Shown here piece after piece: positions 27,261-43,404 of a stretch of 64,000 nt of DNA. The stretch covers positions 39,790 through 103,789 of the forward strand of contig DATKBW010000049.1 in assembly GCA_035513575.1 (NCBI GenBank), in the 5' to 3' direction. The stretch is from Longimicrobiales bacterium. GTDB lineage: Bacteria; Gemmatimonadota; Gemmatimonadetes; Longimicrobiales; RSA9. The notes under the pieces were generated by a model that was not told the DNA's origin, searched no databases, and was given only the letters and a program-made list of their open reading frames with translations. A program made the position numbers and the translations under genes. How positions within the stretch are numbered: position 1 is the first letter of the stretch; every line of letters begins with the position of its first letter.

Positions 27261-28571
27261 CTACGCTCCGTCGCCGGCCGCCGCGTCTTCCCGGAGCCGC
27301 ATCAGCACCACCTGCTGGACCTCCATCTCGTCCTTCCGCAGGACGCCCAAACGGTCGGAGCCCACGAACACGTCCGGCATGGGAACACCCCGCAGCTCCC
27401 CGACCAGCGTCCCGTCCCTGTCGTAGATGTCGATCCGGCCAACGGAGTCCGGAACGCTCTCGGCCACCCCAACCCAGATCCGGCCGCGAGGATCCACCCG
27501 CAGCGAGACGACGCGGGGGATCAGCGACGCGAACGTCATCTTCTCCAGCCGCTGCTCCAGCATGCGCCGCCGCGTCTCCTCGTCGGGACCGCTGCCCCCG
27601 ATCCTGACCCTGGTGCCGCCGGCCTCCTCGGCGTCCCGGAGTCGCTGACGCGCGGCCTCTCGGTCCTCTTCCGTGACCGGCCGCGGCGCGGGCGCCCGCT
27701 CGATGGTCCGCCGAACGGCGCCGTCGGGGCCGATCAGCCGGATCAGGTAGGCGGCCGTGTCCGAGACCACGACGCCGCCGTCCGAGAACCCCTGCCACCG
27801 GAACGCCGGTGCGAACTGCCGGGCCATCATCATCACGATCACGCCGCTCCCGATCTCGAGCCGGACCATATCCGTCGGGGGCTCCGGGATCGTCCAGACG
27901 GTATCCAGCACCTCGGCGGTCGGGCCGAGCCGGAGGAGCGGCAGCCGGGAAGACCCGCCCTCGCCGCCGCTGACGGCCGCCCGCCTGCCGCTTCCGGGCG
28001 GGCCGCCGATGTTGAACAGCGGCCGGAAGCTCTGGAGGAAGCCGCCATCCAGCACGGTGAGGGAGGGCGAGGGCACGCCCGAGTTGTCCCCGTAGGGCAC
28101 CGTCCGTGGGTCGCCGCCGGGCTGTGGATAGCCCGTCAGGCGGCTGTTGGAGAAGTCGGTGACCCACAAGGTGTCTCCGGGACCGACCGCCAGCCCCAGG
28201 GGCTGGCTGAGCTCGCCGGGCCCTTCGCCCTTCCGGCCGTACGTGGCCAGGTGGCGGCCGTCCGGTCCGTACTTCAGCACCCGCGACCCCTGGCGATCGA
28301 GGACGAAGAGGTTGCCGTCGGCATCGCCGGCGAGTCGCTCCCAGCTCACCTCCGCGAACTGATACTCGTCGTCCGCGAACGCGTCGCCGAGAACGCCCAC
28401 CGTGTCCACGGACCAGCCAAGCGACGACGCCGCCGTTTCGGGGTAGCTCCACCGTTCGACGCCGCCCACCGTGTCCACCGCCGCGGCCGTCCGGGAGGCC
28501 GAGGCGGAGCCGTCGTCGCACGCCCCCAGGGCGGCAAGGACGAGAACCCCGGTCACCCTGCGCATACGCAT
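27261..28571 (-). CDS. 6-bladed beta-propeller lipoprotein (core-genome paralogue of the island propeller)
   Basis: Internal ATG gives lipoprotein signal MRMRRVTGVLVLAALGAC. Contains the GRKGEGPGELSQP motif (GxGPGE[FL] hallmark of the 6-bladed beta-propeller family, from memory) and repeated beta-strand blades. Confidence 0.65.
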   Translation of the reverse strand: MRMRRVTGVLVLAALGACDDGSASASRTAAAVDTVGGVERWSYPETAASSLGWSVDTVGVLGDAFADDEYQFAEVSWERLAGDADGNLFVLDRQGSRVLKYGPDGRHLATYGRKGEGPGELSQPLGLAVGPGDTLWVTDFSNSRLTGYPQPGGDPRTVPYGDNSGVPSPSLTVLDGGFLQSFRPLFNIGGPPGSGRRAAVSGGEGGSSRLPLLRLGPTAEVLDTVWTIPEPPTDMVRLEIGSGVIVMMMARQFAPAFRWQGFSDGGVVVSDTAAYLIRLIGPDGAVRRTIERAPAPRPVTEEDREAARQRLRDAEEAGGTRVRIGGSGPDEETRRRMLEQRLEKMTFASLIPRVVSLRVDPRGRIWVGVAESVPDSVGRIDIYDRDGTLVGELRGVPMPDVFVGSDRLGVLRKDEMEVQQVVLMRLREDAAAGDGA

Positions 28572-28680
28572 GATCCGTCGCTCCGTGTCCCGTGAGTCCA
28601 CCGACCGCGGGGTGCGATGCGGCGAGGCCGCCGCAGGGTTGCCCCGCGAGCGGCTCTCCCCTTGCGGCTCGGCCAGCGCC

Positions 28681-31293
28681 TCAGTGATGGAGCTCGGGCC
28701 CGCGTCGCTCCGGCGGGAGCAGGGCGCCTTCCGGGAAGGTCAGCGTGCCGTCCTCGAGGCGGGCGCCACGGAGCGCGTGCGCGAGCACCTCGCCGAGGTC
28801 CTCCGCCAGGTGAACCTTCACCTCGTCCCGGATCTCCACGGGCAGGTCTTCCAGGTCGGCCTCGTTGTCCCGGGGCAGCACCACTTCCCGGATCCCGGCG
28901 CGGAAGGCGCCCAGCACCTTCTCCTTCACACCGCCGATGGGCAGGACCCGCCCCGTCAGGGTGATCTCGCCCGTCATGGCGATGTCGTGCCGCACCGCGC
29001 GCCCGGACAGGGCGGAGACCACGGACGTGGCCATGGCCACACCCGCCGACGGGCCATCCTTCGGGACCGCTCCCGCCGGGACGTGGATATGAAGCTCCAG
29101 GTCCTCGAGGCGGTCGGCGGCGACCCCGAGGCGCCCCGCGTGGGTCTTGGTGTACGTCAGCGCCGCCCGCGCCGACTCCTTCATCACGTCGCCCAGCTGC
29201 CCGGTCAGGATCAGGCGGTCCTTCCCTTTCGACGCGCTGGCCTCGACGAACATGATGTCCCCGCCCATGGGCGTGTAGTACATCCCCGTCGCAACGCCAA
29301 CCACATCCTCCTTGGCCTTGACCTCCGGGTGGACCCGCGGCCGACCGAGGAGCGGGTGGACGTCGGACCCGTCGATCCGCAGGTGCTCCGCCGCCCCGCC
29401 CGCGATCCGCCGTGCCGCCTTCCGCGTGAGCTTCCCCAGCTCCCGCTCCAGCTGCCGGACGCCCGATTCCCGGGTGTACTCGCTGATCACCCGCTGGATC
29501 GCCGACTCCGTGACCTCCACGTCACTCTCGCGCAGCCCGCTCTCCTCCCGCTGCCGCGGGATGAGGTACCGGCGCGCGATCTCCAGCTTCTCCTGCTCGG
29601 TGTACCCCGAGAACTCCACCATCTCCATCCGGTCCAGGAGCGGCGCCGGGATGCGGTCGCGGTAGTTGGCCGTGGCGATGAACAGCACCTCCGACAGGTC
29701 GAAAGGCATCCCGAGATAGTGGTCCGTGAACGTGTTGTTCTGCGCCGGGTCCAGCACCTCGAGCAGTGCGGCGGACGGGTCGCCCTGGAGGGACGTGCCC
29801 AGCTTGTCCACCTCGTCCAGCAGGAACACCGGGTTCTTGGTCCCGGCCTGCTTCAACCCCTGGATGATCCGCCCCGGCATTGCGCCGACGTACGTGCGCC
29901 GGTGGCCCCGGATGTCCGCCTCGTCACGCGCGCCGCCCAGGGCAATGCGGACGTACTTCCGGCCCAGCGCCCGGGCGATGCTCTTCGCGATGGATGTCTT
30001 CCCCACGCCGGGGGGACCGACGAACAGCAGGATCGGGCCGCGGCCCACCGCCCGCGCCTTCGCCTTCCGCGCATCGTCCTCCTGATCCGCCACCGGCTCG
30101 GCCGGGCCACCCGCCGTGCCGTCCTCCGCCTCCCCGCCCTCGAGGTCGAAACGGTCCTGCCCCATGCCGAGGATCTCGTCGACGGGCGGCGCCGATGCCG
30201 TACCGCCCGCCTCGTCGGGACCCGGAGTCGACGGCGAAGCCGACTCCGCGTCCTCTTCGGCCCGCTCCATCTGCAGCTTGCGGACGGCCAGGAACTCGAC
30301 CACCCGGTCCTTCACGTCCTCGAGCCCGTAGTGGTCCTCGTCGAGGATCGTGGTCGCGGTGTCCAGGATGATCTTGTCCTCGGTCCGGCTGTTCCACGGC
30401 AGCTCCGTGACCCAGTCGAGATAGGTTCGGATCACCTGGTATTCTGCCGATTGGGGGTGCGTCCGGCGCAGCCGGTTCAGCTCCCGATCCGCTTCCTCCT
30501 GCGCCTCGGGCGGGAGGCCAAGGGCGTCGATCTTCTGGCGCAGCTCCTCCGCCTCGTTCTCTGCGTCCTCGTCCCCCAGCTCCTTCTGGATGGCCTTGAG
30601 CTGCTCGCGCAGCACCATCTCCCGCTGCTTCTCCCCGAGCTCCTCCTGCACCCGCTGCTGGATCTCCTGCTGTGCCTCGATCCTCACCAGGTCCCGCTCC
30701 ACCGACAGCAGCACCTGCCGCATCCGGCTCTCCACCGGCAGCATCTCCAGGAGCTCCTGCTTGTCCGGTGCGCTGAGCTCGAGATAGAAGCCCACCATGT
30801 CGGCAAACTTGCCGGGGTCTTCGATCCCCTCCACCAGTTGCTGGAGCGCCTCGTCCGGGATCCCGCGCCGCCGACCCAGCTCCACCGACCGCTCCCGGAG
30901 CTCGCGGTCCAGCGCCTTGTACGCCGGGTCCTCCGGGTCCGGCACCGGCTCCTCCTCCACCATCCGGACCACCGCCTCGAGACCCCCTTCGGAGCCTCCC
31001 TCGTATTCCAGCGCGCGCGCGCGCTGATCACCCTGGATCAGCAGCTGGAGGCCGCCCCGGACCCGCTGCGCCTGAACCACGCGCACGACCACCCCGAAAT
31101 CGTAGAGGACTTCGGGCGTCGCATCGTCCACGTTCTCCTTCTGGCACGCCGCGAACATCCGGCGGTCTCCGTTGAGCGCCTTCTGGATCGCCGCGACGGT
31201 GCCCGGGCGACCCGCGCTGATCGGCACGGCCACGCCCGGGAAAACGACCGTCTCCCGCAGCGGCAGCACCGGAAGTCTCACTCGATCACCCAT
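28681..31293 (-). CDS. lon: ATP-dependent Lon protease (LonA type) with an acidic insertion before Walker A
   Basis: 870 aa from ATG 31293 (MGDRVRLPVLPLRETVVFPG...). Walker A GPPGVGKTS, Walker B VFLLDEVDK, protease Ser KDGPSAG and the GGVKEK Lys region. The 1510-aa track ORF is a stop-free upstream extension. Confidence 0.95.
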   Translation of the reverse strand: MGDRVRLPVLPLRETVVFPGVAVPISAGRPGTVAAIQKALNGDRRMFAACQKENVDDATPEVLYDFGVVVRVVQAQRVRGGLQLLIQGDQRARALEYEGGSEGGLEAVVRMVEEEPVPDPEDPAYKALDRELRERSVELGRRRGIPDEALQQLVEGIEDPGKFADMVGFYLELSAPDKQELLEMLPVESRMRQVLLSVERDLVRIEAQQEIQQRVQEELGEKQREMVLREQLKAIQKELGDEDAENEAEELRQKIDALGLPPEAQEEADRELNRLRRTHPQSAEYQVIRTYLDWVTELPWNSRTEDKIILDTATTILDEDHYGLEDVKDRVVEFLAVRKLQMERAEEDAESASPSTPGPDEAGGTASAPPVDEILGMGQDRFDLEGGEAEDGTAGGPAEPVADQEDDARKAKARAVGRGPILLFVGPPGVGKTSIAKSIARALGRKYVRIALGGARDEADIRGHRRTYVGAMPGRIIQGLKQAGTKNPVFLLDEVDKLGTSLQGDPSAALLEVLDPAQNNTFTDHYLGMPFDLSEVLFIATANYRDRIPAPLLDRMEMVEFSGYTEQEKLEIARRYLIPRQREESGLRESDVEVTESAIQRVISEYTRESGVRQLERELGKLTRKAARRIAGGAAEHLRIDGSDVHPLLGRPRVHPEVKAKEDVVGVATGMYYTPMGGDIMFVEASASKGKDRLILTGQLGDVMKESARAALTYTKTHAGRLGVAADRLEDLELHIHVPAGAVPKDGPSAGVAMATSVVSALSGRAVRHDIAMTGEITLTGRVLPIGGVKEKVLGAFRAGIREVVLPRDNEADLEDLPVEIRDEVKVHLAEDLGEVLAHALRGARLEDGTLTFPEGALLPPERRGPELHH

Positions 31294-34765: not shown

Positions 34766-34774
34766 GCGACGACC

Positions 34775-36439
34775 ATGGCGACCGATCTCTTCCGCAGCAT
34801 CCGCGCTCCGCGGGGCACCGGGATCTCCTGCAAGGGGTGGCAGCAGGAGGCGGCGCTGCGGATGCTGATGAACAACCTCGATCCGGAGGTGGCCGAGCGG
34901 CCGGAGGACCTCGTCGTCTATGGCGGTACGGGGCGCGCGGCGCGGAGCTGGGAAGCGTTCGATGCGATCGTCCGTACGCTGCGGGACCTGGAGAACGACG
35001 AGACGCTCCTGGTGCAGTCGGGGAAGCCGGTGGGGGTGTTCCGGACGCACGCGTACGCTCCCCGTGTGCTGATCGCGAACAGCAACCTGGTGGGGCGCTG
35101 GGCGACCTGGGAGCATTTCCGTGAGCTCGAGCGCCAGGGGCTCATGATGTACGGCCAGATGACGGCCGGCTCCTGGATCTACATCGGGACCCAGGGGATC
35201 CTCCAGGGGACCTACGAGACGTTCGGAGCGGTCGCCCGCCAGGAGTTCGGCGGATCGCTGAAGGGCCGCTGGGTCCTCACCGGCGGCATGGGCGGGATGG
35301 GCGGCGCGCAGCCCCTCGCCGCCACCATGAACGACGGGGCGATCCTGTGCGTGGAGGTCGACCCCGATCGGATCGAGCGGCGGCTCCGCACCGGGTACTG
35401 TGACCGCATGACCCGTGACCTGGACGAGGCGCTGCGCTGGGTGACCGGGGCCTCCCGCGCGGGAGAGGCGCTGAGCGTCGGGCTGGCGGGGAACTGCGCC
35501 GAAGTGCTCCCGGAGATCGTGCGTCGCGGCCTGGTCCCCGACGTGCTGACGGACCAGACGTCCGCCCACGACGCGCTCCATGGCTACGTCCCGGCGGGGC
35601 TGTCCCTCGAGGAGGCCGACGCGCTGCGGCAGCGCGACCCGGCGGAGTACCAGCGGCGATCGATGGAGAGCATGGCCACGCACTGCCGCGCCATGGTCGA
35701 GCTGATGCGCCGCGGCGCCGTGACGTTCGATTACGGAAACAATCTCCGCGGCCAGGCGCTCGATGCCGGCTATGACGAGGCGTTTGCTTTCCCCGGCTTC
35801 GTCCCGGCCTATGTCCGGCCGCTCTTCTGCGAAGGGAAGGGGCCCTTCCGCTGGGCCGCGCTGTCCGGTGACCCGGCGGACATCCACCGCACGGACGACC
35901 TGGTCCTGGAGCTGTTCCCCGAGGACGACCACCTGCGCCGGTGGATCACCCGGGCCCGGGACAGGGTGCGGTTCCAGGGGCTCCCCAGTCGCATCTGCTG
36001 GCTCGGCCTCGGCGCCCGCGCCCGGTTCGGGATCGCCCTCAACGACCTGGTGGCGAGCGGCGAGATCAGGGCCCCCATCGTGATCGGCCGCGATCACCTG
36101 GACACGGGGTCCGTCGCGTCGCCCTTCCGCGAAACCGAGGCGATGAAGGACGGGAGCGACGCCGTCGCCGACTGGCCCATCCTGAACGCCCTCCTGAATA
36201 CGGCCAGCGGGGCCAGCTGGGTGAGCTTCCATCACGGGGGGGGCGTCGGGATCGGCAACTCCCTGCACGCCGGCCAGGTCATCGTCGCCGACGGGACGCC
36301 CGAGATGCGTGAGCGGCTCGAGCGCGTGCTGACCAACGATCCGGGGATCGGCGTCGCCCGGCACGCCGACGCGGGCTACGACGCCGCGCTGGAGACCGCG
36401 CGGCGCGAGGGCGTGCGCCTGCCCATGCGGGAGCACTGA
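34775..36439 (+). CDS. hutU: Urocanate hydratase
   Basis: 554 aa. [34 protein letters not shown]; near full-length match to the HutU pattern. Confidence 0.95.
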
Positions 36440-36583
36440 CCGGCGTGGCCGGACCCGCGCCGCGGAGCCCGCCCCGTCCCGTTCCGGTTGACGCCGCCCG
36501 ACATCCCGGGCGACGTTGTCGCCGGTACCCTGCACGGACGCCGGCCCCCGCGCAGACCTGTGAAACGCCGACCAGGAACCGGA

Positions 36584-37240
36584 ATGACGACCGACGGATA
36601 CGAATACGACGCGCCCGAGTCCCACCCCTTCCCGACGGACCCGGACATCGAGCCGGCGGAAGAAGAAGAGAGCCCGCGGCCGACGGCGAGCCGATGGACG
36701 GACAGCATTCGCAACCGCCTGTTCCGCGCCCGGACCCTGATCATCAGCGGCGAGGTGAACCAGAAGCTGGCTTCGGAGGTGATGGGGCAGGTGCTGGCGA
36801 TGTCGGCGGAGTCGGACGAGCCCATCACGATCTTCATCAACTCCCAGGGCGGGCACGTCGAATCCGGAGACACCATCCACGACATCATCCGCTTCATCCG
36901 CTCGCCCGTGCACATGGTGGGCACGGGCTGGGTCGCCAGCGCGGGGGCGCTGATCTACGTGGCCGTCCCGCGGGAGCGGCGTTTTTCGCTGCCCAACACG
37001 CGATTCCTCCTCCACCAGCCGGCCGGCGGGACCCGCGGTACCGCATCGGACGTGGAGATCGAAGCGCGCGAGATCCTGAAGATGAGGGAGCGGTTGAACC
37101 GCGTGTTCTCCGAGCAGACGGGGCAGCCGCTGGAGCGGATCGTGGAGGACACCCACCGCAACTTCTGGCTGGGCGCGAACGAGGCGGTGGAGTACGGTCT
37201 GGTCGGCAAGATCATCCAGCATGCCGACGAGGTGAAGTAG
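36584..37240 (+). CDS. clpP: ClpP-family ATP-dependent protease proteolytic subunit with an acidic N-terminal extension
   Basis: INSQGGHVESG, catalytic Ser in GWVASAGA, His in FLLHQP. C-terminus AVEYGLVGKIIQHADEVK. Start uncertain (36488 or 36584). Confidence 0.85.
   Translation: MTTDGYEYDAPESHPFPTDPDIEPAEEEESPRPTASRWTDSIRNRLFRARTLIISGEVNQKLASEVMGQVLAMSAESDEPITIFINSQGGHVESGDTIHDIIRFIRSPVHMVGTGWVASAGALIYVAVPRERRFSLPNTRFLLHQPAGGTRGTASDVEIEAREILKMRERLNRVFSEQTGQPLERIVEDTHRNFWLGANEAVEYGLVGKIIQHADEVK
37186..37240 (+). repeat. Left copy of the 55-nt imperfect direct repeat (functional clpP 3' end)
   Basis: GGTGGAGTACGGTCTGGTCGGCAAGATCATCCAGCATGCCGACGAGGTGAAGTAG. 48/55 identical to 41196-41250 by hand alignment. 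Confidence 0.85.
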
Positions 37241-37250
37241 GGCGCCAGAG

Positions 37251-38020
37251 CTATAGGATCCCGGACCGGCGTAATGCATCGGCCAACATCCATTGCCAGC
37301 CGAGTCGGGAGCGGATGTAGCTGGGCCGTGCTCCGATGATCTCATTCAGGCGATCGCTCATGGAGGGAAGGCCGGAGAACCCGAGGGTAAAGGCGAGCTC
37401 AGCGAGCGGGCTTTTGGGATGCCGCTGGATTTCAAGTGCCACTCCGACCACGCGCAGCGCCTGGTACCACGTTTTTGGGGCCCGAGCCCGGCGCCAATGA
37501 ATGCCCGTTGCCAACGCGCGAAGGAAATTCGTCGGGCTCGGGCTAGCGCTGCCATGCTCCGGAACACGGCAGCATTTCGGGCGAAACATTTGAGCGCCGC
37601 AGCAGCATCGGGCGTCACATCGAACCCACGCCGGTGCGCCCACAGCACCGCGGCTTCTGGCCAGTCGCTGGCGTCAGTGAGCTGTCGCCTCAGCACTTCC
37701 GCGCCTGGTTCGCAAGCCCAGACGACGGTTCGCACCCCCAGTGGACGGGCGGCCGAGGCTAGAAGGGTGCCGGCCCTCCGGCCCACACAATCCACCCAGA
37801 GCGCGACGGGCGCGTTCACCACGCGTCGAGCCACTTGATCGACAACTTCCGCGACCTCCGCCGCAGAACAACCACGAGGAGGGCGGAGCGCGACGACGTT
37901 GCCTCGCGTCAGGTAGGGGGGCAGGCCACCAAGATCCACCGGACCGGTGAACCGCCCGTATGCGTCCGGATCGGCGTCCTTCACGTCGAGATCGAGCGTG
38001 TAAATCGGCAACTGGCGCAT
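37251..38020 (-). pseudogene. AraC/XylS-family HTH regulator with an unknown N-terminal domain, interrupted by a frameshift at a C4A5 run
   Basis: ORF 37358..38020 carries the N-domain and first HTH (MAALARARRISFARWQRAFIGAGLGP). ORF 37251..37643, in another frame, carries the rest (KTWYQALRVVGVALEIQ...LAELAFTLGFSGLPSMSDRLNEIIGARPSYIR). The frames meet at CCCCAAAAA (37472-37480); one extra base would fuse them. Confidence 0.6.
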
Positions 38021-38311: not shown

Positions 38312-39403
38312 ATGATCGCACATTACCAGCAGAGCAAGCGCAATCAGGTTTTAGCGGCGTTAGGACGGTATCCCGTGCTCTCCTCCTCCAGATCGAACGG
38401 GTTCAGGCAATTGCTTGCCGTGACACTCGTCACGGCAAATTGTGGAACGTCTCCGGGTTCAGCTTCGGAACGGGGGGGCGGAAGCGCCACGTTCCCGGAT
38501 CACCTTCATGTCGTGGGCGAGGTCATCCTGGAAGAACGCCCGAACGTCATTAACGTGCAGCCTTCGGTGCGGGCCGATCCGCACGGAGGGTTCCTCGTGG
38601 CCGATAAGCGCGAAAGCCAGGTCAGACGCTACCACCTCGATGGGAGCCTCGACTTCGCTTTTGGTAGTCCCGGCCAAGGACCTGAAGAGTTCGTCGGCGC
38701 TGTCGTCAGCGTACGCCTACCCGATCAGTCCATCCTAGTAGTCGATCGCACCAGCAAGATTGTAACCCTCGATCCCTCTGGTAATCGGGTAACGCGTCAG
38801 TGGCAGCTCCCGCTCACGAATATCGTGGACGCTGACGTGATCGATGATTCTCGGATCCTTTTTTCAGTCCGCGCATCCGCATCGCGCCCGCTGCTGCACA
38901 TCTGGAATATCAACAAGGGGGAATTAGAGCGACATTTCTTCATTCCTCCGCAGAATTCTCAAATCCGGGCGGCGTCGATTATCGGCGGATGGGCGTTCGC
39001 GAGCATTCAGAACGATACGATCTGGAGTTTCTTTTCGGCCGTGGACTCCGTTTACGCGTTTTCTACCGAGGGTGTTCGCCTCATGGCCGTCCGGATCCCA
39101 TTCGAGCGCTTTGACATCGCGCGTCCACCACGTCGTGTTTTCGGGATCCGCTTCGGATCGTTCGACGAATGGATCGGATCATTCCACCTGATTTCCTCCA
39201 TTGCTGCATTGGAGGACCTCCTGCTCATCCAGTATGGTCGCTACGGCAGGAATCCCCAAGTTTCGCTGTTGGGGATGACCACCGCTGGCGCGCGCGTGTT
39301 CGAACATTTGCTTGTCGTCACGCCTTACCCCCCCATAACGGCCTACTTCCAAGCACGTGAGACCTCGGAGCCGAATCGATGGATCGCCGCCTCCATCCGG
39401 TAG
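38312..39403 (+). CDS. 6-bladed beta-propeller protein (probable lipoprotein), island copy
   Basis: 363 aa. GSPGQGPEEF motif (GxGPGEF-type hallmark) and repeated blade-like beta segments. Hydrophobic LLAVTLVTANC near the N-terminus. An alternative GTG start at 38375 would give a standard-length lipoprotein signal. Confidence 0.6.
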   Translation: MIAHYQQSKRNQVLAALGRYPVLSSSRSNGFRQLLAVTLVTANCGTSPGSASERGGGSATFPDHLHVVGEVILEERPNVINVQPSVRADPHGGFLVADKRESQVRRYHLDGSLDFAFGSPGQGPEEFVGAVVSVRLPDQSILVVDRTSKIVTLDPSGNRVTRQWQLPLTNIVDADVIDDSRILFSVRASASRPLLHIWNINKGELERHFFIPPQNSQIRAASIIGGWAFASIQNDTIWSFFSAVDSVYAFSTEGVRLMAVRIPFERFDIARPPRRVFGIRFGSFDEWIGSFHLISSIAALEDLLLIQYGRYGRNPQVSLLGMTTAGARVFEHLLVVTPYPPITAYFQARETSEPNRWIAASIR

Positions 39404-39864
39404 GAGTGCTAGTCGTCGCTGTAGTCGCAGGGATTTCCGGTGGCGCCTTTGGTCGTATGGTCTCCGATCAGCCGGGTACTCCGATTGAGGAATACATGTC
39501 GATCGATTCGAGCAGGGGAAGCAGTGAACGCCTGCTCCGGCTCGTTTGGACCGTCGGAAGCACCAGCGCGCTCGGGTGCCAGAACTGGCAGCCCCTGATG
39601 AGGAGATTGCTTTGGCATCATGGGGATGAGCTGGAGATCGTCGCGGTTGTGGGCGAAAGAGATTCTGCCGCAGTCCGCGCGTTCCTCCGCACAGAGCGGT
39701 TGGGAAACGTGCGCATTGCTGGACAGCCCGCCCGATACCGCGACAGGTCTTCCCGCTTCCACCTGCTCTACCGTGACTCAGTGGTGGTGTCCGCAGGCGC
39801 CTCCCGGCGCGGTATGGCGGCGCTCGAGCACGTCGCCAAGGTGGTAATGAACGAGGATTACTGA
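39379..39864 (+). CDS. Membrane-anchored thioredoxin-fold-like protein lacking a CxxC motif (single Cys, A-L-G-C)
   Basis: 161 aa. TM helix VGVLVVAVVAGISGGAF. LLRLVWTVGSTSALGCQNWQPLMRRLL...ELEIVAVVGERDSAAVRAFL resembles the TlpA/redoxin beta-alpha-beta core, but only the second Cys position is kept. GGAG SD upstream; 25-nt overlap with the propeller gene. Fold assignment is tentative. Confidence 0.4.
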   Translation: MDRRLHPVGVLVVAVVAGISGGAFGRMVSDQPGTPIEEYMSIDSSRGSSERLLRLVWTVGSTSALGCQNWQPLMRRLLWHHGDELEIVAVVGERDSAAVRAFLRTERLGNVRIAGQPARYRDRSSRFHLLYRDSVVVSAGASRRGMAALEHVAKVVMNEDY

Positions 39865-39894
39865 GCGAGGTCACCAAGACGCATGTTTCACTTC

Positions 39895-39904
39895 AAGGAG
39901 GAGG
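39895..39904 (+). promoter_or_regulatory. Strong Shine-Dalgarno (AAGGAGGAGG) for the Cys-rich peptide gene
   Basis: 8-nt AT-rich spacer (TTATTAAA) to the ATG at 39913. Lies inside the longer 39883 ORF, which argues for the 39913 start. Confidence 0.75.
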
Positions 39905-39912
39905 TTATTAAA

Positions 39913-40125
39913 ATGTCTCGACTGCGCAAGTTGCTCATTGGCGTGCTGGCTCTCGCGGGACTTGGCTTCGCCGGAGCAGTCGTCACCCCTGGGGCCTTGT
40001 TCGGGGATATGGACCCGGCTGATTGGTGCCAGCAGGTCCTGGATCCCAATTGTACCGAGCACTGCTACTATGAATGTGACATTACAAAGGAGTGTCAGTT
40101 CGAAAACTGCTGCGGGTGCGGTTGA
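39913..40125 (+). CDS. 70-aa signal/leader-bearing cysteine-rich peptide (8 Cys in the last 32 residues)
   Basis: MSRLRKLLIGVLALAGLGFAGAVVTPGALFGDMDPADWCQQVLDPNCTEHCYYECDITKECQFENCCGCG. Basic n-region plus hydrophobic h-region, then an acidic Cys-rich tail. Excellent SD. The next gene starts 5 nt after the stop. Confidence 0.65.
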   Translation: MSRLRKLLIGVLALAGLGFAGAVVTPGALFGDMDPADWCQQVLDPNCTEHCYYECDITKECQFENCCGCG

Positions 40126-40129
40126 ACCA

Positions 40130-40948
40130 ATGCGAAGGAGCGGGAGGTCTGGGATTCTGAAGACGCTTCCAGCGCTCCCGCTCCGTCACAGGCGCCCTGC
40201 GCTCTCCGTCCTTCTCGGACTGCAGGTGATCTACGCACCAGTCGCCGCGCAGTCGATCCGGGGTGCGGTCGTGGACGACGAGTCATCGCGGCCCATCACT
40301 GGATCGCTGGTGCAGGTGTTCGACCAGGCGGGTGCCCGCGTTTCCGCAAGCCAAACGGGATCCGACGGGCGATTTCATGTTCGGCTGCCGAATGCGGGAT
40401 CGTATGCGTTGTCCGCGGAACGGCTCGGGTACGGGTGGGCGGTGGCGCGCTCGCTCCACGTGCGAGTTGGCGAAGTACTAGAGCTGGAGCTGCGGCTGCC
40501 CCGGCTCCCCATTCCACTCGAACCGCTCACCGTTCGTGTGGAGCGCCGGCTCGCACACCTGGAGCGCGTGGGCTTCTACCAGCGGGAGCGGATGGGCATC
40601 GGTCGGTTCATTACCGCAGAGGACATTGAGGCGCGCCGCCCGCTCATCCTTACGGACGTCCTTCGCGGCGAGCCATCCGTCCGGGTCCTGAATACTCCCG
40701 ACGGTGCGGGTCACGTCATTGCGTTTCGCGGCGCACACACGATGTACCTGGCCATGGGCCATGACGCCTGCCTCCCAGTCGTGGTGCTTGACGGCACCCG
40801 ACTCGCCACGGCCGGGGACGTCAACCTTGTCCACCCGGAAAATGTCGCTGCCATCGAGCTCTACCCAAGCGGGAATGGCGCTCCTCCGCAGTTTGGCGGT
40901 CTGGGGGCGCCCTGCGGGGTCATCATGATCTGGACAAAGCGAGGCTGA
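40130..40948 (+). CDS. Carboxypeptidase-regulatory-like domain + TonB-receptor plug-like domain protein (no barrel)
   Basis: 272 aa from the internal ATG. Signal-like LSVLLGLQVIYAPVAAQS, then SIRGAVVDDESSRPITGSLVQVFD...SDGRFHVRLPNAGSYALSAERLGY (CarbopepD_reg pattern). C-terminal ITAEDIEARRPLILTDVLRGEPSVRV...VVLDG...ENVAAIELYP (plug-like). Confidence 0.7.
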   Translation: MRRSGRSGILKTLPALPLRHRRPALSVLLGLQVIYAPVAAQSIRGAVVDDESSRPITGSLVQVFDQAGARVSASQTGSDGRFHVRLPNAGSYALSAERLGYGWAVARSLHVRVGEVLELELRLPRLPIPLEPLTVRVERRLAHLERVGFYQRERMGIGRFITAEDIEARRPLILTDVLRGEPSVRVLNTPDGAGHVIAFRGAHTMYLAMGHDACLPVVVLDGTRLATAGDVNLVHPENVAAIELYPSGNGAPPQFGGLGAPCGVIMIWTKRG

Positions 40949-41195: not shown

Positions 41196-41250
41196 GGTGG
41201 AGGACGGCCTCGTCGGCAAGATCATCCAACACGTCCACGAGGTGAAGTAG
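41196..41250 (+). repeat. Right copy of the direct repeat: displaced clpP 3'-end remnant
   Basis: GGTGGAGGACGGCCTCGTCGGCAAGATCATCCAACACGTCCACGAGGTGAAGTAG encodes ...VEDGLVGKIIQHVHEVK*. There is no ClpP body upstream of it. Confidence 0.8.
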
Positions 41251-41498
41251 CGCGGGACCCTTGCCAACCGGCCAGCGGGATTGCTAGCGTTCCCATACCA
41301 GCGGTGACGCGGGCCGCGAGAAAGCCCACGCCCACCCGGCCCACCGGCGAGCGCCGGGGGTCCCGCCCTCTCTCAGAGGGCACGCGAGGTCGGAACGGCG
41401 CGTCACAGGCGGTCGACGCGGGCCCCCGGACCGGGAGCCGCGCCGAAACGACGACAGCGTCGAAGGAGGCGACGAATGCCACCGGGCAGTCGAGGAAG

Positions 41499-41577: not shown

Positions 41578-43245
41578 CTAGACGTCCCCGGTCCGATCCG
41601 CGACCTGGCGCTGCACCTCCTCCAGCATTCGCCGACCCCTCTCCATCAGTGTGGTCGCCCGTTCCTCGACCTCGGCACGGAAGGCATGGTCCTCGATGTC
41701 GGCCAGGTTGATCAGGACGTTGCGGTGTGCGCCGTAGAGGCACGCCTCGAGCGCTTTCGCCCCCACGTCCAGGTCTGAGCGAGAGGAGTACTGGCCCACG
41801 CGCGCGAGCTCGAGCATGGGGTCCCAGGCGCGGTCAGCCGTCTCCATGGCCCGGAGCGGGACCAGCGTCGCCTTCTTGAGGCCCTCCTCCATCGCCGTCC
41901 GCCGGGCGACCTTCTGCTCCTCCGTCTCCCGCGGCATCCGGATGGCCTTCACGTAATCCGCGAAGGCGTCGGTGTCGGCGTCGACCGCGCGCAGCAGCGC
42001 CTCCTGGACCTCCACCAGCGCCGGGAGGTTCGCCCGCACGGTGGCGTCGAGGTGATCGTACTTCCGGCGGCCGTAAGTGAGCCATCCCACCATGGCCCCG
42101 AGGCCGGCGCCCAGGGCGCCCACGAGCGCGGCGACCGAGCCGCCCCCCGGCGTCGAGGTCCGTGCGCCGACCGCCTCCACGAAGTCGCGGACGGACTTCC
42201 GGATGAGCGGCCCGTCGGCGTCCTGGTCGATCATGTACTCGATGATCTTCTCCTCCGGGCGGAAGGCGTGGACGGAGGAGAGCCCCAGCCGATCGATGAC
42301 GAGCCGGACCTTCTGCCGCTCGTCGAGGATGAACAGCCCCTCCCGCTCGATGTAGAAATCGGCCGCCTGGAGGACCGCCTCCAGGGGGATCAGCCCCACG
42401 ACCTCGCTGCCCGCGACGCCGACGCCCAGCTCGGCCGCGTCCTTCCGGATCGCCTCGTAGACGGCGTGGAGGGGCGTGACGCGGTAGTTGTCCAGGTTCA
42501 TGGAGACCTGGGCGAGGCCGAACTCCTCGAGCTCCCAGCCGATCCCCTTCACCGCGTCGAAATACCCGGGCTCCCGGATGGTCTCGCCCCCGGGGCCCTT
42601 CACGGTCCGGCCCTGCTCCCGGATGTTCAGCGCCAGGCGGTGCGCCTGGTTACGGGTGCCCAGGATGTTGACGTTGTAGGCGATCAGGAAGAAGCGGACG
42701 CCGGTCACGGTCGCGCCGGACCGGGCGACGAAGGTCGCCGGGCCGAAGTCGGGCGCCCACTCGGGCTGGCCGATCCGGTCCGCGAGGCCCTCGTACTCGC
42801 CCTGCCGGATCTGCCGGAGCGCCTTCCGATGCTCCAGCGCCTGGGCCTCCTCGTACAGGTAGATCGGGACCCCGAGCTCCTCGCCGACGCGTGCGCCGAA
42901 CCGCCGGGCGCAGTCGATGCACTCCTCCATGCTCACGCCGGAAACGGGGATGAAGGGCACCACGTCCACCGCTCCGAGCCGCGGGTGCTCGCCGCTGTGC
43001 CGGGTCATGTCGATCAGCCGGTACGCCGTTGCCGCCGCCCTGAAGGCCGCTTCCACGACATCGGCGGGCGCGCCCACGAAGGTCATCACCGTCCGGTTCG
43101 TGGATTTCCCCGGGTCCACGTCCAGGAGCTTGACTCCGGGTGCGCCGCGGATGCTCTCGGCGATCGCGTCCAGCAGCGCCGGGTCCCGGCCTTCGGAGAA
43201 GTTTGGAACACACTCGACCAGCCGCATCGACCGCCGTCCGTTCAT
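41578..43245 (-). CDS. ftcD: Bifunctional glutamate formiminotransferase-cyclodeaminase
   Basis: N-terminal LVECVPNFSEGRD formiminotransferase domain. C-terminal cyclodeaminase domain (TSTPGGGSVAALVGALGAGLGAMV). Start is either 43245 or 43227. Confidence 0.88.
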   Translation of the reverse strand: MNGRRSMRLVECVPNFSEGRDPALLDAIAESIRGAPGVKLLDVDPGKSTNRTVMTFVGAPADVVEAAFRAAATAYRLIDMTRHSGEHPRLGAVDVVPFIPVSGVSMEECIDCARRFGARVGEELGVPIYLYEEAQALEHRKALRQIRQGEYEGLADRIGQPEWAPDFGPATFVARSGATVTGVRFFLIAYNVNILGTRNQAHRLALNIREQGRTVKGPGGETIREPGYFDAVKGIGWELEEFGLAQVSMNLDNYRVTPLHAVYEAIRKDAAELGVGVAGSEVVGLIPLEAVLQAADFYIEREGLFILDERQKVRLVIDRLGLSSVHAFRPEEKIIEYMIDQDADGPLIRKSVRDFVEAVGARTSTPGGGSVAALVGALGAGLGAMVGWLTYGRRKYDHLDATVRANLPALVEVQEALLRAVDADTDAFADYVKAIRMPRETEEQKVARRTAMEEGLKKATLVPLRAMETADRAWDPMLELARVGQYSSRSDLDVGAKALEACLYGAHRNVLINLADIEDHAFRAEVEERATTLMERGRRMLEEVQRQVADRTGDV

Positions 43246-43404
43246 GATGGATGGGGGAACCCGTGTCCCCGACTCTGCCCGGCACGCCCCCATCCGTCAA
43301 GGCCGTGGGAATCCGGGCCGCCGTCCAACCATACGCCCCCGGCCTCCGTCCAACGCAGGGGAGACTCATTCGAACAATCGAACGCATCCACAGGAAGGAG
43401 ACCC

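What the first reader, a model, noticed from the sequence alone, without database searches (positions are those of the whole stretch)
39913..40125. 70-aa peptide with a Sec-like leader and an acidic C-x7-C-x3-C-x3-C-x5-C-x4-CC-x-C tail ending in Gly
The sequence is MSRLRKLLIGVLALAGLGFAGAVV TPGALFGDMDPADW CQQVLDPN CTEH CYYE CDITKE CQFEN CCGCG.
- The N-terminus has a basic n-region and a hydrophobic h-region of about 18 residues.
- The predicted mature part (about 40-46 aa) is strongly acidic (7 D/E versus 1 K in the last 34 residues) and contains 8 Cys.
- The gene has the best Shine-Dalgarno I noticed in the window (AAGGAGGAGG, 8-nt spacer).
- Its GC3 is lower than host genes.
- The CxxxCxxxC spacing is reminiscent of radical-SAM-modified peptide classes (SCIFF/ranthipeptides, CXXX-repeat peptides), and of metal-binding or 4-disulfide mini-proteins. 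No maturase is nearby.
- The C-terminal Gly and the adjacent 6-bladed propeller loosely recall peptidyl-glycine amidation, because eukaryotic PAL is a 6-bladed propeller. This is pure speculation.
Basis: partly seen in the sequence, partly recalled or inferred. Interest (0 to 1): 0.7.

Follow-up and report, generated by a model that had tools for sequence, protein, structure and literature searches.

The report
Orphan secreted cysteine-rich peptide gene
A probably real but completely orphan gene for a small, acidic, eight-cysteine exported peptide sits in a 4-kb foreign DNA insert of a Longimicrobiales genome; it has no relatives, no modifying enzyme nearby and no known function, so it is a curiosity and not yet a discovery.

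Summary

It is the third of four co-directional, tightly packed genes, and all four products carry export signals:
- an NHL-repeat beta-propeller;
- a 161-aa membrane-anchored protein with one Cys, possibly thioredoxin-like;
- the peptide;
- a CarboxypepD_reg+Plug protein that starts 4 nt after the peptide's stop.

The operon and a frameshifted divergent AraC-type gene form a 4,010-bp insert. The insert is 62% GC against 71% in the flanks. It is bounded by a 59-nt duplication of the clpP 3' end.

The peptide has no detectable homologue. It matches only itself among 5.8 billion proteins and 1.84 billion representatives, and matches nothing in Pfam, NCBIfam or PDB. Homologues of the Plug gene lack any such upstream peptide. 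No radical-SAM or other maturase lies within about 15 kb, and no copper monooxygenase partner for amidation was found.

Most likely it is a Sec-exported mini-protein with four disulfides and unknown role. The RiPP and amidation analogies are unsupported. Two whole-collection scans for the Cys framework were swamped by simple repeats, so they are inconclusive.

The parts
37186..37244 (+). Left copy of a 59-nt direct repeat: the last 17 codons plus stop of clpP (VEYGLVGKIIQHADEVK*). It marks the left boundary of the islet.
   Evidence: the repeat finder family D1, alignment, translation. ClpP Pfam hit for 36440-37240.
37251..38020 (-). Divergent AraC-type HTH regulator gene split over two reading frames (frameshift, pseudogene or assembly error).
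   Evidence: HTH_18 E=1.8e-5 in the 130-aa ORF 37251-37643. The N-terminal part lies in the 220-aa ORF 37358-38020.
38312..39403 (+). NHL-repeat beta-propeller protein (363-aa ORF). The likely start is GTG 38375, which gives an N-terminal export signal ...FRQLLAVTLVTA|NC.
   Evidence: PDB phmmer hits to Thin, TRIM2, TRIM3 and TRIM71 NHL domains, E 5.9e-9 to 5e-4. Weak Pfam DUF5128 and TolB_like hits. Otherwise an orphan. Sequence read.
39379..39864 (+). 161-aa protein with an N-terminal membrane anchor or signal and a single Cys (Cys67, GCQNW). Possibly a degenerate thioredoxin fold. It overlaps the propeller gene by 25 nt and has GGAG 8 nt upstream of its ATG.
   Evidence: Sequence. No Pfam or PDB sequence hits. 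AF2 pLDDT is only 42, but the secondary-structure order is b-a-b-a-b..b-a with the Cys at the N-terminus of helix 1. Foldseek matches are non-significant, though ResA, StoA and DsbE recur.
39895..39904 (+). Shine-Dalgarno AAGGAGGAGG, 8 nt upstream of ATG 39913.
39913..40125 (+). The peptide gene (70 aa plus stop).
39913..39978 (+). Predicted Sec signal peptide, residues 1-22 (MSRLRKLLIGVLALAGLGFAGA), with cleavage inferred after AGA.
   Evidence: Read from the sequence and scored with crude n/h-region criteria. No SignalP was available.
40027..40119 (+). Eight-cysteine core: C-x7-C-x3-C-x3-C-x5-C-x4-CC-x-C.
   Evidence: Pattern match. AF2 shows three short helices at low confidence.
40131..40190 (+). 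Strong RNA hairpin (22-nt arms, 16-nt loop) starting 6 nt after the peptide's stop and covering codons 1-20 of the next gene. No U-tract follows.
   Evidence: Inverted repeat I1. Fold of 40105-40215: -48.7 kcal/mol, z=-2.1 against shuffles.
40130..40948 (+). CarboxypepD_reg + TonB-receptor Plug protein (272 aa, no barrel) with its own signal peptide. Its ATG lies 4 nt after the peptide's stop.
   Evidence: Pfam PF13620 E=2.7e-13 and PF07715 E=7.1e-8. Homologues.
41196..41254 (+). Right copy of the 59-nt repeat (86% identical; VEDGLVGKIIQHVHEVK*). It has host-like codon use and is probably the displaced original clpP end. It marks the right boundary of the islet.

Best explanation
The ORF is a genuine, translated gene for a small exported protein.

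Proposed mechanism, step by step:
- Shown: the leader has Sec-type anatomy.
- Inferred: the leader takes the peptide across the inner membrane and is cut after Ala22.
- Inferred: this leaves a roughly 5.3-kDa, very acidic 48-mer. Its eight Cys, an even number, form four disulfides in the oxidising periplasm and give a compact, helix-containing mini-protein.
- Shown: the gene is the third of a four-gene operon of exported proteins (NHL propeller, single-Cys possibly thioredoxin-like anchor protein, peptide, CarboxypepD_reg-Plug protein). The operon sits on a 4-kb horizontally acquired islet inserted at the 3' end of clpP.
- Inferred from the 4-nt gap and the hairpin over the next start: translation of the peptide is coupled to that of the Plug protein.
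- Inferred, least certain: the peptide acts outside the cytoplasm as a disulfide-stabilised effector or ligand (bacteriocin-, defensin- or inhibitor-like). The NHL and thioredoxin-like pair would then serve as its binding, folding or thiol-exchange partners.
For: Evidence that the gene is real:
- The Shine-Dalgarno, ATG and ORF are intact.
- A Shine-Dalgarno plus a signal-peptide-like N-terminus occurs at only 4 genes among 2,386 candidate starts. The other three are long ORFs of 154-705 codons, one with a DUF4097 domain.
- GC by codon position (0.59/0.47/0.66) matches the neighbouring islet genes (0.61/0.46/0.67), and the shifted frames score far worse.
- An independent gene caller on a Logan contig of identical DNA called the ORF.

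Evidence for the operon:
- The packing is tight: a 25-nt overlap, a 48-nt gap and a 4-nt gap.
- All four products have N-terminal export signals.

Evidence on the partners:
- The propeller is an NHL domain.
- Thioredoxin-like and NHL domains are a documented functional pair in NHLRC2 (PMC6107167). They are also paired in SOQ1, where a thiol-exchange role has been proposed (bioRxiv 10.1101/2021.03.16.435614).

Evidence for horizontal acquisition:
- A 59-nt duplication of the clpP 3' end flanks 4,010 bp of 62% GC DNA in a 71% GC genome.

Cysteine pattern:
- The framework contains CxxxC...CxC and fits the published cis-defensin regex (PMC11561630).
Against: - No homologue exists in any database searched, so there is no conservation, covariation or dN/dS evidence for translation or for the Cys framework.
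- The NCBI annotation of the MAG apparently has no gene here: the protein cluster holds a single Logan sequence.
- The direct antisense frame scores as well or better on codon statistics.
- AF2 models are of low confidence: 54.5 for the peptide and 42 for orf161. Fold searches gave nothing significant.
- orf161 has one Cys where a thioredoxin fold carries CxxC, and it has no sequence match to any thioredoxin family.
- The closest homologues of the Plug protein lack an upstream peptide, so the pairing is not conserved.
- Defensin-type features are missing: there is no GXC gamma-core and the peptide is anionic. In addition, 5% of shuffled cores fit the defensin regex.
- The divergent regulator gene is frameshifted, so the islet may be decaying.
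Confidence: 0.5

Rival explanations
1. The ORF is not a functional peptide gene. Either it is a chance ORF in the 265-nt spacer between orf161 and the Plug gene, or it is an upstream ORF that matters only because its translation melts the hairpin at 40131-40190 and lets ribosomes start the Plug gene (translational coupling, leader function).
For: - An 80-codon open frame has about a 5% chance per frame at this composition (my calculation from base frequencies).
- The Plug gene's own frame is also open back to 39851.
- The antisense frame scores well on codon statistics.
- There are no homologues.
- The gene is absent upstream of all Plug homologues examined.
- A stable hairpin sits immediately after the stop and over the next start.
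- The islet shows signs of decay.
Against: - A canonical Sec leader plus eight Cys plus a near-perfect Shine-Dalgarno is unnecessary for a coupling uORF, and is rare by chance. Roughly 0.3 spurious cases of Shine-Dalgarno plus signal peptide are expected per window, before the Cys pattern and the exact intergenic placement are required.
- Regulatory leader peptides are usually 14-30 aa.
- Rfam finds no known leader or riboswitch.
Confidence: 0.2
2. It is a periplasmic thiolate metal-binding peptide (metallothionein- or chaperone-like). It would bind Cu, Zn or Cd through reduced Cys and carboxylates, possibly handing metal to the Plug-domain protein.
For: - The composition: 8 Cys, 9 D/E and 1 His in 48 residues, with a CCGC cluster.
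- The downstream gene carries a TonB-receptor Plug domain.
- A monothiol thioredoxin-like partner could keep Cys reduced (speculative).
Against: - There is no match to any metallothionein or metallochaperone family at E<=10.
- From general knowledge, exported Cys-rich proteins with an even Cys count are normally oxidised to disulfides, and periplasmic Cu sites usually use Met or His.
- The Plug protein has no barrel, and its family occurs in unrelated contexts.
Confidence: 0.12
3. It is a RiPP or bacteriocin precursor that is post-translationally modified. The options are thioether crosslinks made by a radical-SAM enzyme encoded elsewhere, or C-terminal Gly-directed amidation by the NHL propeller acting like PAL.
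For: - The ORF is small and Cys-rich with a leader-like N-terminus and a C-terminal Gly.
- A hairpin follows the structural gene, as in many bacteriocin operons.
- PAL is an NHL-type six-bladed propeller (established knowledge), and the neighbour is an NHL propeller.
Against: - No radical-SAM, YcaO, LanB/C/M or copper monooxygenase family matched any protein scanned at 23-48 kb.
- There are no SCIFF, CXXX-repeat or MbnA HMM hits.
- The leader is a classical Sec signal. It would remove the peptide from cytoplasmic maturases.
- PAL is not among the propeller's PDB matches at E<=10.
- PAL needs a PHM-made hydroxyglycine substrate, and no PHM family matched.
Confidence: 0.06
4. The real gene is on the opposite strand: the antisense ORF 39871-40062, 63 aa from GTG.
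For: The antisense frame is open, and its codon log-likelihood (+8.8) equals the islet gene mean of 8.7.
Against: - It has no Shine-Dalgarno upstream of its only start codon (read).
- It would run against a tightly packed co-directional operon.
- It has no recognisable protein features.
- Direct antisense frames generally mimic coding statistics.
Confidence: 0.03

Closest known systems
Bacterial cis-defensins / CS-alpha-beta (cysteine-stabilised helix) peptides such as xanthusin-1, AdDLP and actifensins (PMC11561630, PMC6989792)
   Same: - It is a small ribosomal peptide with a signal peptide.
- It has CxxxC on a predicted helix and a C-terminal CxC.
- It fits the published screening regex CX(2,18)CX(3)CX(2,12)CX(4,17)CXC, and the C4-x5-C5-x-C6 spacing is compatible.
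- Classes with a fourth disulfide exist.
   Different: - The peptide is strongly anionic, whereas defensins are cationic.
- It lacks the GXC gamma-core, which that paper reports in all of its bacterial defensins.
- The helix-to-strand loop is only 5 residues.
- AF2 predicts no beta-strands, at low confidence.
- There is no sequence or fold match.
- 5% of shuffled cores fit the regex.
- The host phylum is Gemmatimonadota, whereas that paper's classes, as far as I read it, come mainly from myxobacteria plus one alphaproteobacterium.
SCIFF / ranthipeptides and CXXX-repeat radical-SAM peptides
   Same: Short Cys-rich C-terminal region, including two consecutive Cx3C spacings.
   Different: - There is no HMM match.
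- No radical-SAM maturase lies within about 15 kb.
- It has a Sec signal, whereas these peptides carry a cytoplasmic leader.
- The spacing is expected by chance in 22% of shuffles.
Thioredoxin-like + NHL beta-propeller redox modules (NHLRC2, PMC6107167; SOQ1 lumenal domains, bioRxiv 10.1101/2021.03.16.435614)
   Same: An NHL six-bladed propeller is associated with a membrane-anchored, extracytoplasmic, possibly thioredoxin-fold protein. A Cys-rich potential client is encoded next to them.
   Different: - Here the two are separate genes in the reverse order.
- The thioredoxin fold is only suggested.
- The active-site CxxC is reduced to a single Cys (CQNW).
- No homology to NHLRC2 or SOQ1 was detected.
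Bacteroidota NVEALA small proteins (PF14055) next to DUF5128 / TolB-like six-bladed propellers. This association is recalled from memory and was not verified here.
   Same: A small hydrophobic-leader peptide lies beside a six-bladed propeller. The propeller's weak best Pfam hits are exactly DUF5128 (E=0.041) and TolB_like (E=0.18).
   Different: - The peptide has no PF14055 hit at E<=10.
- The propeller hits are below the Pfam thresholds.
- The phylum is different.
- No literature was found for either term.
Peptidylglycine alpha-amidating system (PHM + PAL)
   Same: The peptide has a C-terminal Gly, and the neighbour is an NHL-type propeller, the same fold class as PAL.
   Different: - No PHM family matched any protein scanned.
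- PAL is not among the propeller's PDB matches.
- The catalytic Zn and Tyr/Arg residues could not be aligned.

Membership tests
Sec (SPase I) signal peptides | Positively charged n-region, 7-15-residue uncharged hydrophobic h-region, and small residues at -3 and -1 of the cleavage site | tested here: met
   MSRLRK / LLIGVLALAGLGF / AGA|VV. Mean Kyte-Doolittle 2.47 over residues 7-24. Crude criteria are met by only 12 of 2,386 ORF starts in the window. No SignalP or DeepTMHMM was run.
SCIFF / ranthipeptide precursors | Match to the SCIFF family model (TIGR03973 in NCBIfam) | tested here: not met
   0 NCBIfam families at E<=0.01 and 0 Pfam families at E<=10 for the peptide.
SCIFF / ranthipeptide / CXXX-repeat peptides | Adjacent radical-SAM (SPASM) maturase gene | tested here: not met
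   No Radical_SAM domain in any ORF scanned at 23-48 kb. The neighbours are ALDH, an NHL protein, Lon, PFK, urocanase, ClpP, FTCD, DUF4097, ABC1 and M50.
CXXX-repeat peptides | Long tandem array of CXXX units | tested here: not met
   Only C-x3-C-x3-C, i.e. two units. This arises in 22% of shuffles.
Bacterial cis-defensins (CS-alpha-beta) | Cys regex CX(2,18)CX(3)CX(2,12)CX(4,17)CXC plus a signal peptide (PMC11561630) | tested here: met
   The regex matches residues 39-69. 5.3% of shuffled cores also match.
Bacterial cis-defensins (CS-alpha-beta) | GXC gamma-core before Cys4, and a predicted or solved helix plus two- or three-stranded sheet fold | tested here: not met
   Cys55 and Cys61 are preceded by YE and KE. 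The AF2 model has helices only, pLDDT 54.5. Foldseek gives 0 hits.
Bacterial metallothioneins / metallochaperones | Match to a family profile (e.g. PF02069) or to a solved homologue | tested here: not met
   No Pfam hit at E<=10. No PDB hit for the mature region at E<=10.
Bacterial metallothioneins / metallochaperones | Stoichiometric metal binding through thiolates | not testable with these tools
   Needs ICP-MS or native MS of the purified peptide.
Peptidylglycine amidation (PHM/PAL) | A copper monooxygenase (PHM) that makes the hydroxyglycine intermediate | tested here: not met
   No Cu2_monooxygen family matched any protein scanned: the four islet operon ORFs, one frame of the AraC-type gene and the larger ORFs at 23-48 kb.
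Peptidylglycine amidation (PHM/PAL) | A propeller homologous to PAL with its Zn-binding His triad and catalytic Tyr/Arg | tested here: inconclusive
   The propeller is NHL-type (TRIM/Thin hits, E down to 5.9e-9). PAL is not among PDB matches at E<=10. The residues could not be aligned.
NHL-repeat beta-propellers (the neighbour gene) | Significant similarity to NHL repeats | tested here: met
   PDB phmmer: 6d69 Thin E=5.9e-9, TRIM2 1.1e-5, TRIM3 7.9e-5, TRIM71 1.3e-4, with three repeat-wise alignments. Only residues of about 81-158 are recognised.
Thioredoxin-fold thiol-disulfide oxidoreductases (orf161) | Thioredoxin fold with CxxC at the N-terminus of helix 1 and a cis-Pro loop | tested here: inconclusive
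   The secondary-structure order fits, and the sole Cys67 sits at the start of helix 1. However, pLDDT is 42, there is a single Cys (CQNW), no cis-Pro is evident and no Pfam or PDB sequence hit exists. Foldseek hits to ResA, StoA and DsbE are all at E>=0.57.
Integrated genomic islet | Flanking direct repeats that duplicate the target gene's 3' end, with atypical composition | tested here: met
   59-nt repeat at 86% identity, 4,010 bp apart. 62.0% GC against 70.8% and 71.6%.
Integrated genomic islet | An integrase or recombinase gene within the element | tested here: not met
   No integrase family matched the islet ORFs scanned in Pfam, PHROGs or PADLOC.

The most novel reading that the evidence does not exclude
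The islet encodes a previously undescribed, self-contained extracytoplasmic module. In it, an NHL propeller (client-binding platform) and a monothiol thioredoxin-like anchor protein mature, or exchange thiols and disulfides with, a dedicated eight-Cys acidic peptide encoded beside them. This would be a split, bacterial, client-linked counterpart of the NHLRC2/SOQ1 thioredoxin-NHL architecture. The product would then act together with the barrel-less Plug protein at the outer membrane.
Probability: 0.1. Interest if true: 0.6.

Novelty: new member of a known kind. Interest (0 to 1): 0.3.

Why it matters
If translated, this is one more lineage-restricted, horizontally carried, secreted cysteine-rich mini-protein, from the poorly studied order Longimicrobiales (Gemmatimonadota). 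Such orphans are a plausible source of new disulfide scaffolds, antimicrobials or inhibitors.

Its linkage to an NHL propeller and a possible monothiol thioredoxin-like protein would, if real, give a tractable bacterial system with a candidate client for the enigmatic thioredoxin-NHL pairing seen in NHLRC2 and SOQ1.

At present it occurs once, has no relatives and has no functional evidence. Its practical value is as a candidate for synthesis and expression, and as a small correction to the public annotation: a missed gene and two truncated starts.

Tried and rejected
Searches for relatives:
1. The word-indexed search of 5.8 billion proteins and phmmer against 1.84 billion representatives returned only the peptide itself.
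Essentially all were TGC/TGT simple repeats or Arg-rich off-frames.
It was swamped by (TG)n 'CVCV' repeats. It is inconclusive and the scan is spent.
4. A stricter VRN version run to completion on viral contigs gave 9 hits, all repeats.
5. tblastn of the mature peptide against plasmids gave nothing. Against phages it gave one match at E=5.
6. PDB phmmer with the full peptide matched only the leader, at E=0.41. The mature peptide gave nothing.

Context and structure:
7. I looked for a conserved peptide upstream of the Plug protein's homologues: P0005 (64% identical, same sample), P0010, P0012, P0007, P0013 and P0015. None has one, and their contexts are unrelated. The 69-aa ORF in L250 is a Cys-free membrane peptide.
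8. AF2 single-sequence models of the peptide and orf161 were of low confidence, and Foldseek gave nothing significant.
9. PADLOC, PHROGs and Rfam gave nothing meaningful.
10. The Logan contig is identical DNA, so it offers no polymorphism for dN/dS.
11. Literature searches for NVEALA and DUF5128 found no papers.

Ideas considered and dropped:
- A Cys-sensing attenuator leader. The ORF is too long, it has a signal peptide, and the downstream gene is unrelated to Cys metabolism.
- MauA- or QhpC-type quinoprotein small subunits with a propeller partner. There are no family hits, no radical-SAM or MauG gene, and only a single Trp.
- Ferredoxin or HiPIP. The Cys spacing is wrong.
- A lipoprotein. 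There is no lipobox.
Full report
**Observation.**
- The frame is open from an earlier ATG at 39883 (80 aa).
- The Shine-Dalgarno AAGGAGGAGG (39895-39904) sits 8 nt before ATG 39913.
- The Cys spacing, the 7 D/E against 1 K in the last 34 residues and the terminal Gly are all correct.
- The back-translated eight-Cys pattern occurs once in the window and in none of 100 shuffles.
- The mature part after a predicted AGA|VV cleavage is 48 aa, about 5.3 kDa, pI about 4.0.

**Is it a gene?**
- Among 2,386 start codons in all six frames that open ORFs of at least 50 codons, only 12 have a signal-peptide-like N-terminus by simple charge and hydrophobicity criteria. Only four genes combine that with a Shine-Dalgarno. 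The other three are long ORFs of 154-705 codons, one of which carries a DUF4097 domain.
- GC by codon position (0.59/0.47/0.66) has the coding signature of its neighbours (0.61/0.46/0.67).
- A codon model trained on the neighbours scores this frame at -5 and the two shifted frames at -25. The direct antisense frame scores +8.8, so codon statistics do not settle the strand. The antisense ORF has no ribosome-binding site.
- A gene caller on an independent Logan assembly of the same sample (SRR8556377, identical DNA) called the ORF. The protein cluster holds only that Logan sequence, so the NCBI annotation apparently lacks the gene.
- I put the probability that it is translated at about 0.75-0.8.

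**Context.**
- The window is a 70.7% GC Longimicrobiales (Gemmatimonadota) MAG.
- The peptide gene is the third of four co-directional genes.
  - An NHL-repeat beta-propeller (38312-39403). Its PDB matches are the NHL domains of Thin, TRIM2, TRIM3 and TRIM71, E 5.9e-9 to 5e-4. Pfam gives only sub-threshold DUF5128 and TolB_like hits.
  - A 161-aa ORF (39379-39864). It overlaps the propeller gene by 25 nt and has its own GGAG.
  - The peptide.
  - A 272-aa CarboxypepD_reg + Plug protein (40130-40948) whose ATG lies 4 nt after the peptide's stop.
- All four have N-terminal export signals. The public annotation's shorter starts (296 and 240 aa) cut two of them off.
- orf161 has no sequence match anywhere. 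Its low-confidence model (pLDDT 42) has the strand-helix order of a thioredoxin fold, with its only Cys at the start of helix 1. ResA, StoA and DsbE-type oxidoreductases recur among non-significant Foldseek hits. That assignment is suggestive only.
- A strong hairpin (40131-40190; the fold of the surrounding 111 nt, 40105-40215, gives -48.7 kcal/mol, z=-2.1) begins 6 nt after the peptide's stop and covers the first 20 codons of the Plug gene. This fits translational coupling or transcript stabilisation. It has no U-tract.

**The islet.**
- A 59-nt direct repeat, 86% identical, reproduces the last 17 codons and the stop of clpP at 37186-37244 and again at 41196-41254, 4,010 bp apart.
- The DNA between the copies is 62.0% GC, against 70.8% and 71.6% in the flanks. 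GC3 is 0.66-0.74 against 0.88-0.95 in host genes.
- It holds the four-gene operon and a divergent AraC-type HTH gene that is split by a frameshift. No integrase family matched the islet ORFs scanned.
- So the peptide is cargo of a small horizontally acquired insert at the clpP 3' end, lying between clpP and the histidine-utilisation gene ftcD.

**Relatives.**
- None were found. The peptide matches only itself among 5.8 billion clustered proteins and in a full phmmer pass over 1.84 billion representatives.
- It has no Pfam (E<=10), NCBIfam, PADLOC or PHROGs hit. It has no PDB match outside the leader. tblastn found nothing in plasmids and only an E=5 match in phages.
- The propeller is equally orphan apart from its NHL repeats.
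- The Plug protein does have homologues at 64-29% identity. In six of them, including the closest one from the same sample, the contexts are unrelated and no Cys-rich ORF lies upstream.
- Phmmer cannot see a relative that shares only the cysteines, so I scanned DNA for the exact Cys framework. A stricter scan of viral contigs ran to completion and found only repeats.

**Interpretation.** Sequence and context best fit a Sec-exported mini-protein with four disulfides.
- The supporting features are an even Cys count, a canonical signal peptide and co-expression with three other extracytoplasmic proteins.
- The framework contains CxxxC and a terminal CxC, the cysteine-stabilised-helix signature. 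It satisfies the regex used to mine bacterial cis-defensins (PMC11561630).
- Against that reading, 5% of shuffled cores satisfy the regex too, the GXC gamma-core is absent, the peptide is anionic and the AF2 model is unreliable. I do not file it as a defensin.
- The NHL and possible thioredoxin-like pair recalls NHLRC2 (PMC6107167). It also recalls SOQ1, where a thiol-exchange role has been proposed (bioRxiv 10.1101/2021.03.16.435614). That motivates the hypothesis that the two proteins bind or fold the peptide. This is inference only, and orf161 has a single Cys where a thioredoxin fold carries CxxC.

- Radical-SAM peptide classes fail on every testable feature. There is no family match and no maturase at 23-48 kb. 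The leader is a Sec signal. The CxxxCxxxC spacing arises in 22% of shuffles.
- The amidation idea keeps only the fold-class coincidence. PAL is not among the propeller's matches, and no copper monooxygenase family matched any protein scanned.
- The '5' UTR of the downstream gene' alternative cannot be excluded. The hairpin and the 4-nt spacing would suit a coupling uORF. But a full signal peptide and eight Cys would be superfluous for that role.

**Verdict.** This is probably a real gene for an orphan, secreted, cysteine-rich peptide, carried on a small foreign islet in an uncultured Longimicrobiales genome. It is not a member of any known family, no maturation system is attached and no comparative evidence is available. 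Interest is modest at 0.3. It would rise only if the NHL, thioredoxin-like and peptide triad proves to recur elsewhere, or if the peptide shows activity when made.

Noticed in passing
window 37186-37244 and 41196-41254: A 59-nt direct repeat (86% identical) duplicates the last 17 codons and the stop of clpP. It brackets a 4,010-bp, 62% GC insert in a 71% GC genome. The right copy has the more host-like codons, so it is probably the displaced original gene end. No integrase family matched the ORFs scanned inside the insert.
   Followed up: yes
window 37251-38020 (-): The AraC-type HTH regulator gene, divergent from the operon, is split between two frames: a 220-aa ORF and a 130-aa ORF, the latter with HTH_18 at E=1.8e-5. 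This is a frameshift, either pseudogenisation or a MAG assembly error.
   Followed up: partly
window 40131-40190 (+): An inverted repeat with 22-nt arms forms a strong hairpin right after the peptide's stop and inside the first 20 codons of the Plug gene. It sequesters an internal AAGGAGCGGGAGG and has no U-tract. It may act in translational coupling or as a transcript stabiliser.
   Followed up: partly
window 38312-39403 and 40130-40948: The public annotation starts (296 aa for the propeller, 240 aa for the Plug protein) remove the predicted N-terminal export signals. Starts at GTG 38375 (or ATG 38312) and ATG 40130 restore them. The Logan gene call instead starts the Plug gene at 40070, overlapping the peptide gene.
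   Followed up: partly
window 27261-28739 (-): A second NHL-repeat protein (492 aa, host-like GC, Pfam NHL E=5.6e-10) lies 10 kb upstream between an aldehyde dehydrogenase and Lon. It is only 24% identical over 91 aa to the islet propeller, so it is not a recent paralogue.
   Followed up: partly
window 34766-36439 and 41578-43293: The islet lies between two histidine-utilisation genes, urocanase (hutU, +) and formiminotransferase-cyclodeaminase (ftcD, -), with clpP in between.
   Followed up: no
L242 440-800: The 414-nt gap upstream of the closest Plug-protein homologue (64% identical, same sample) carries two copies of GGTGGCAAAGTGCACGAT about 110 nt apart. They might form a regulatory repeat. 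No peptide ORF is present there.
   Followed up: no
L156 and L168 (metagenome contigs): Among the repeat-dominated hits of the Cys-framework scan, two contigs encode the same non-repetitive Cys/Lys-rich stretch, CRCKESCKCKDGCTPACNCGGKCNCRHCCEC or a close variant. It lies inside 300-400-aa ORFs, looks metallothionein-like and is unrelated to the finding.
   Followed up: no
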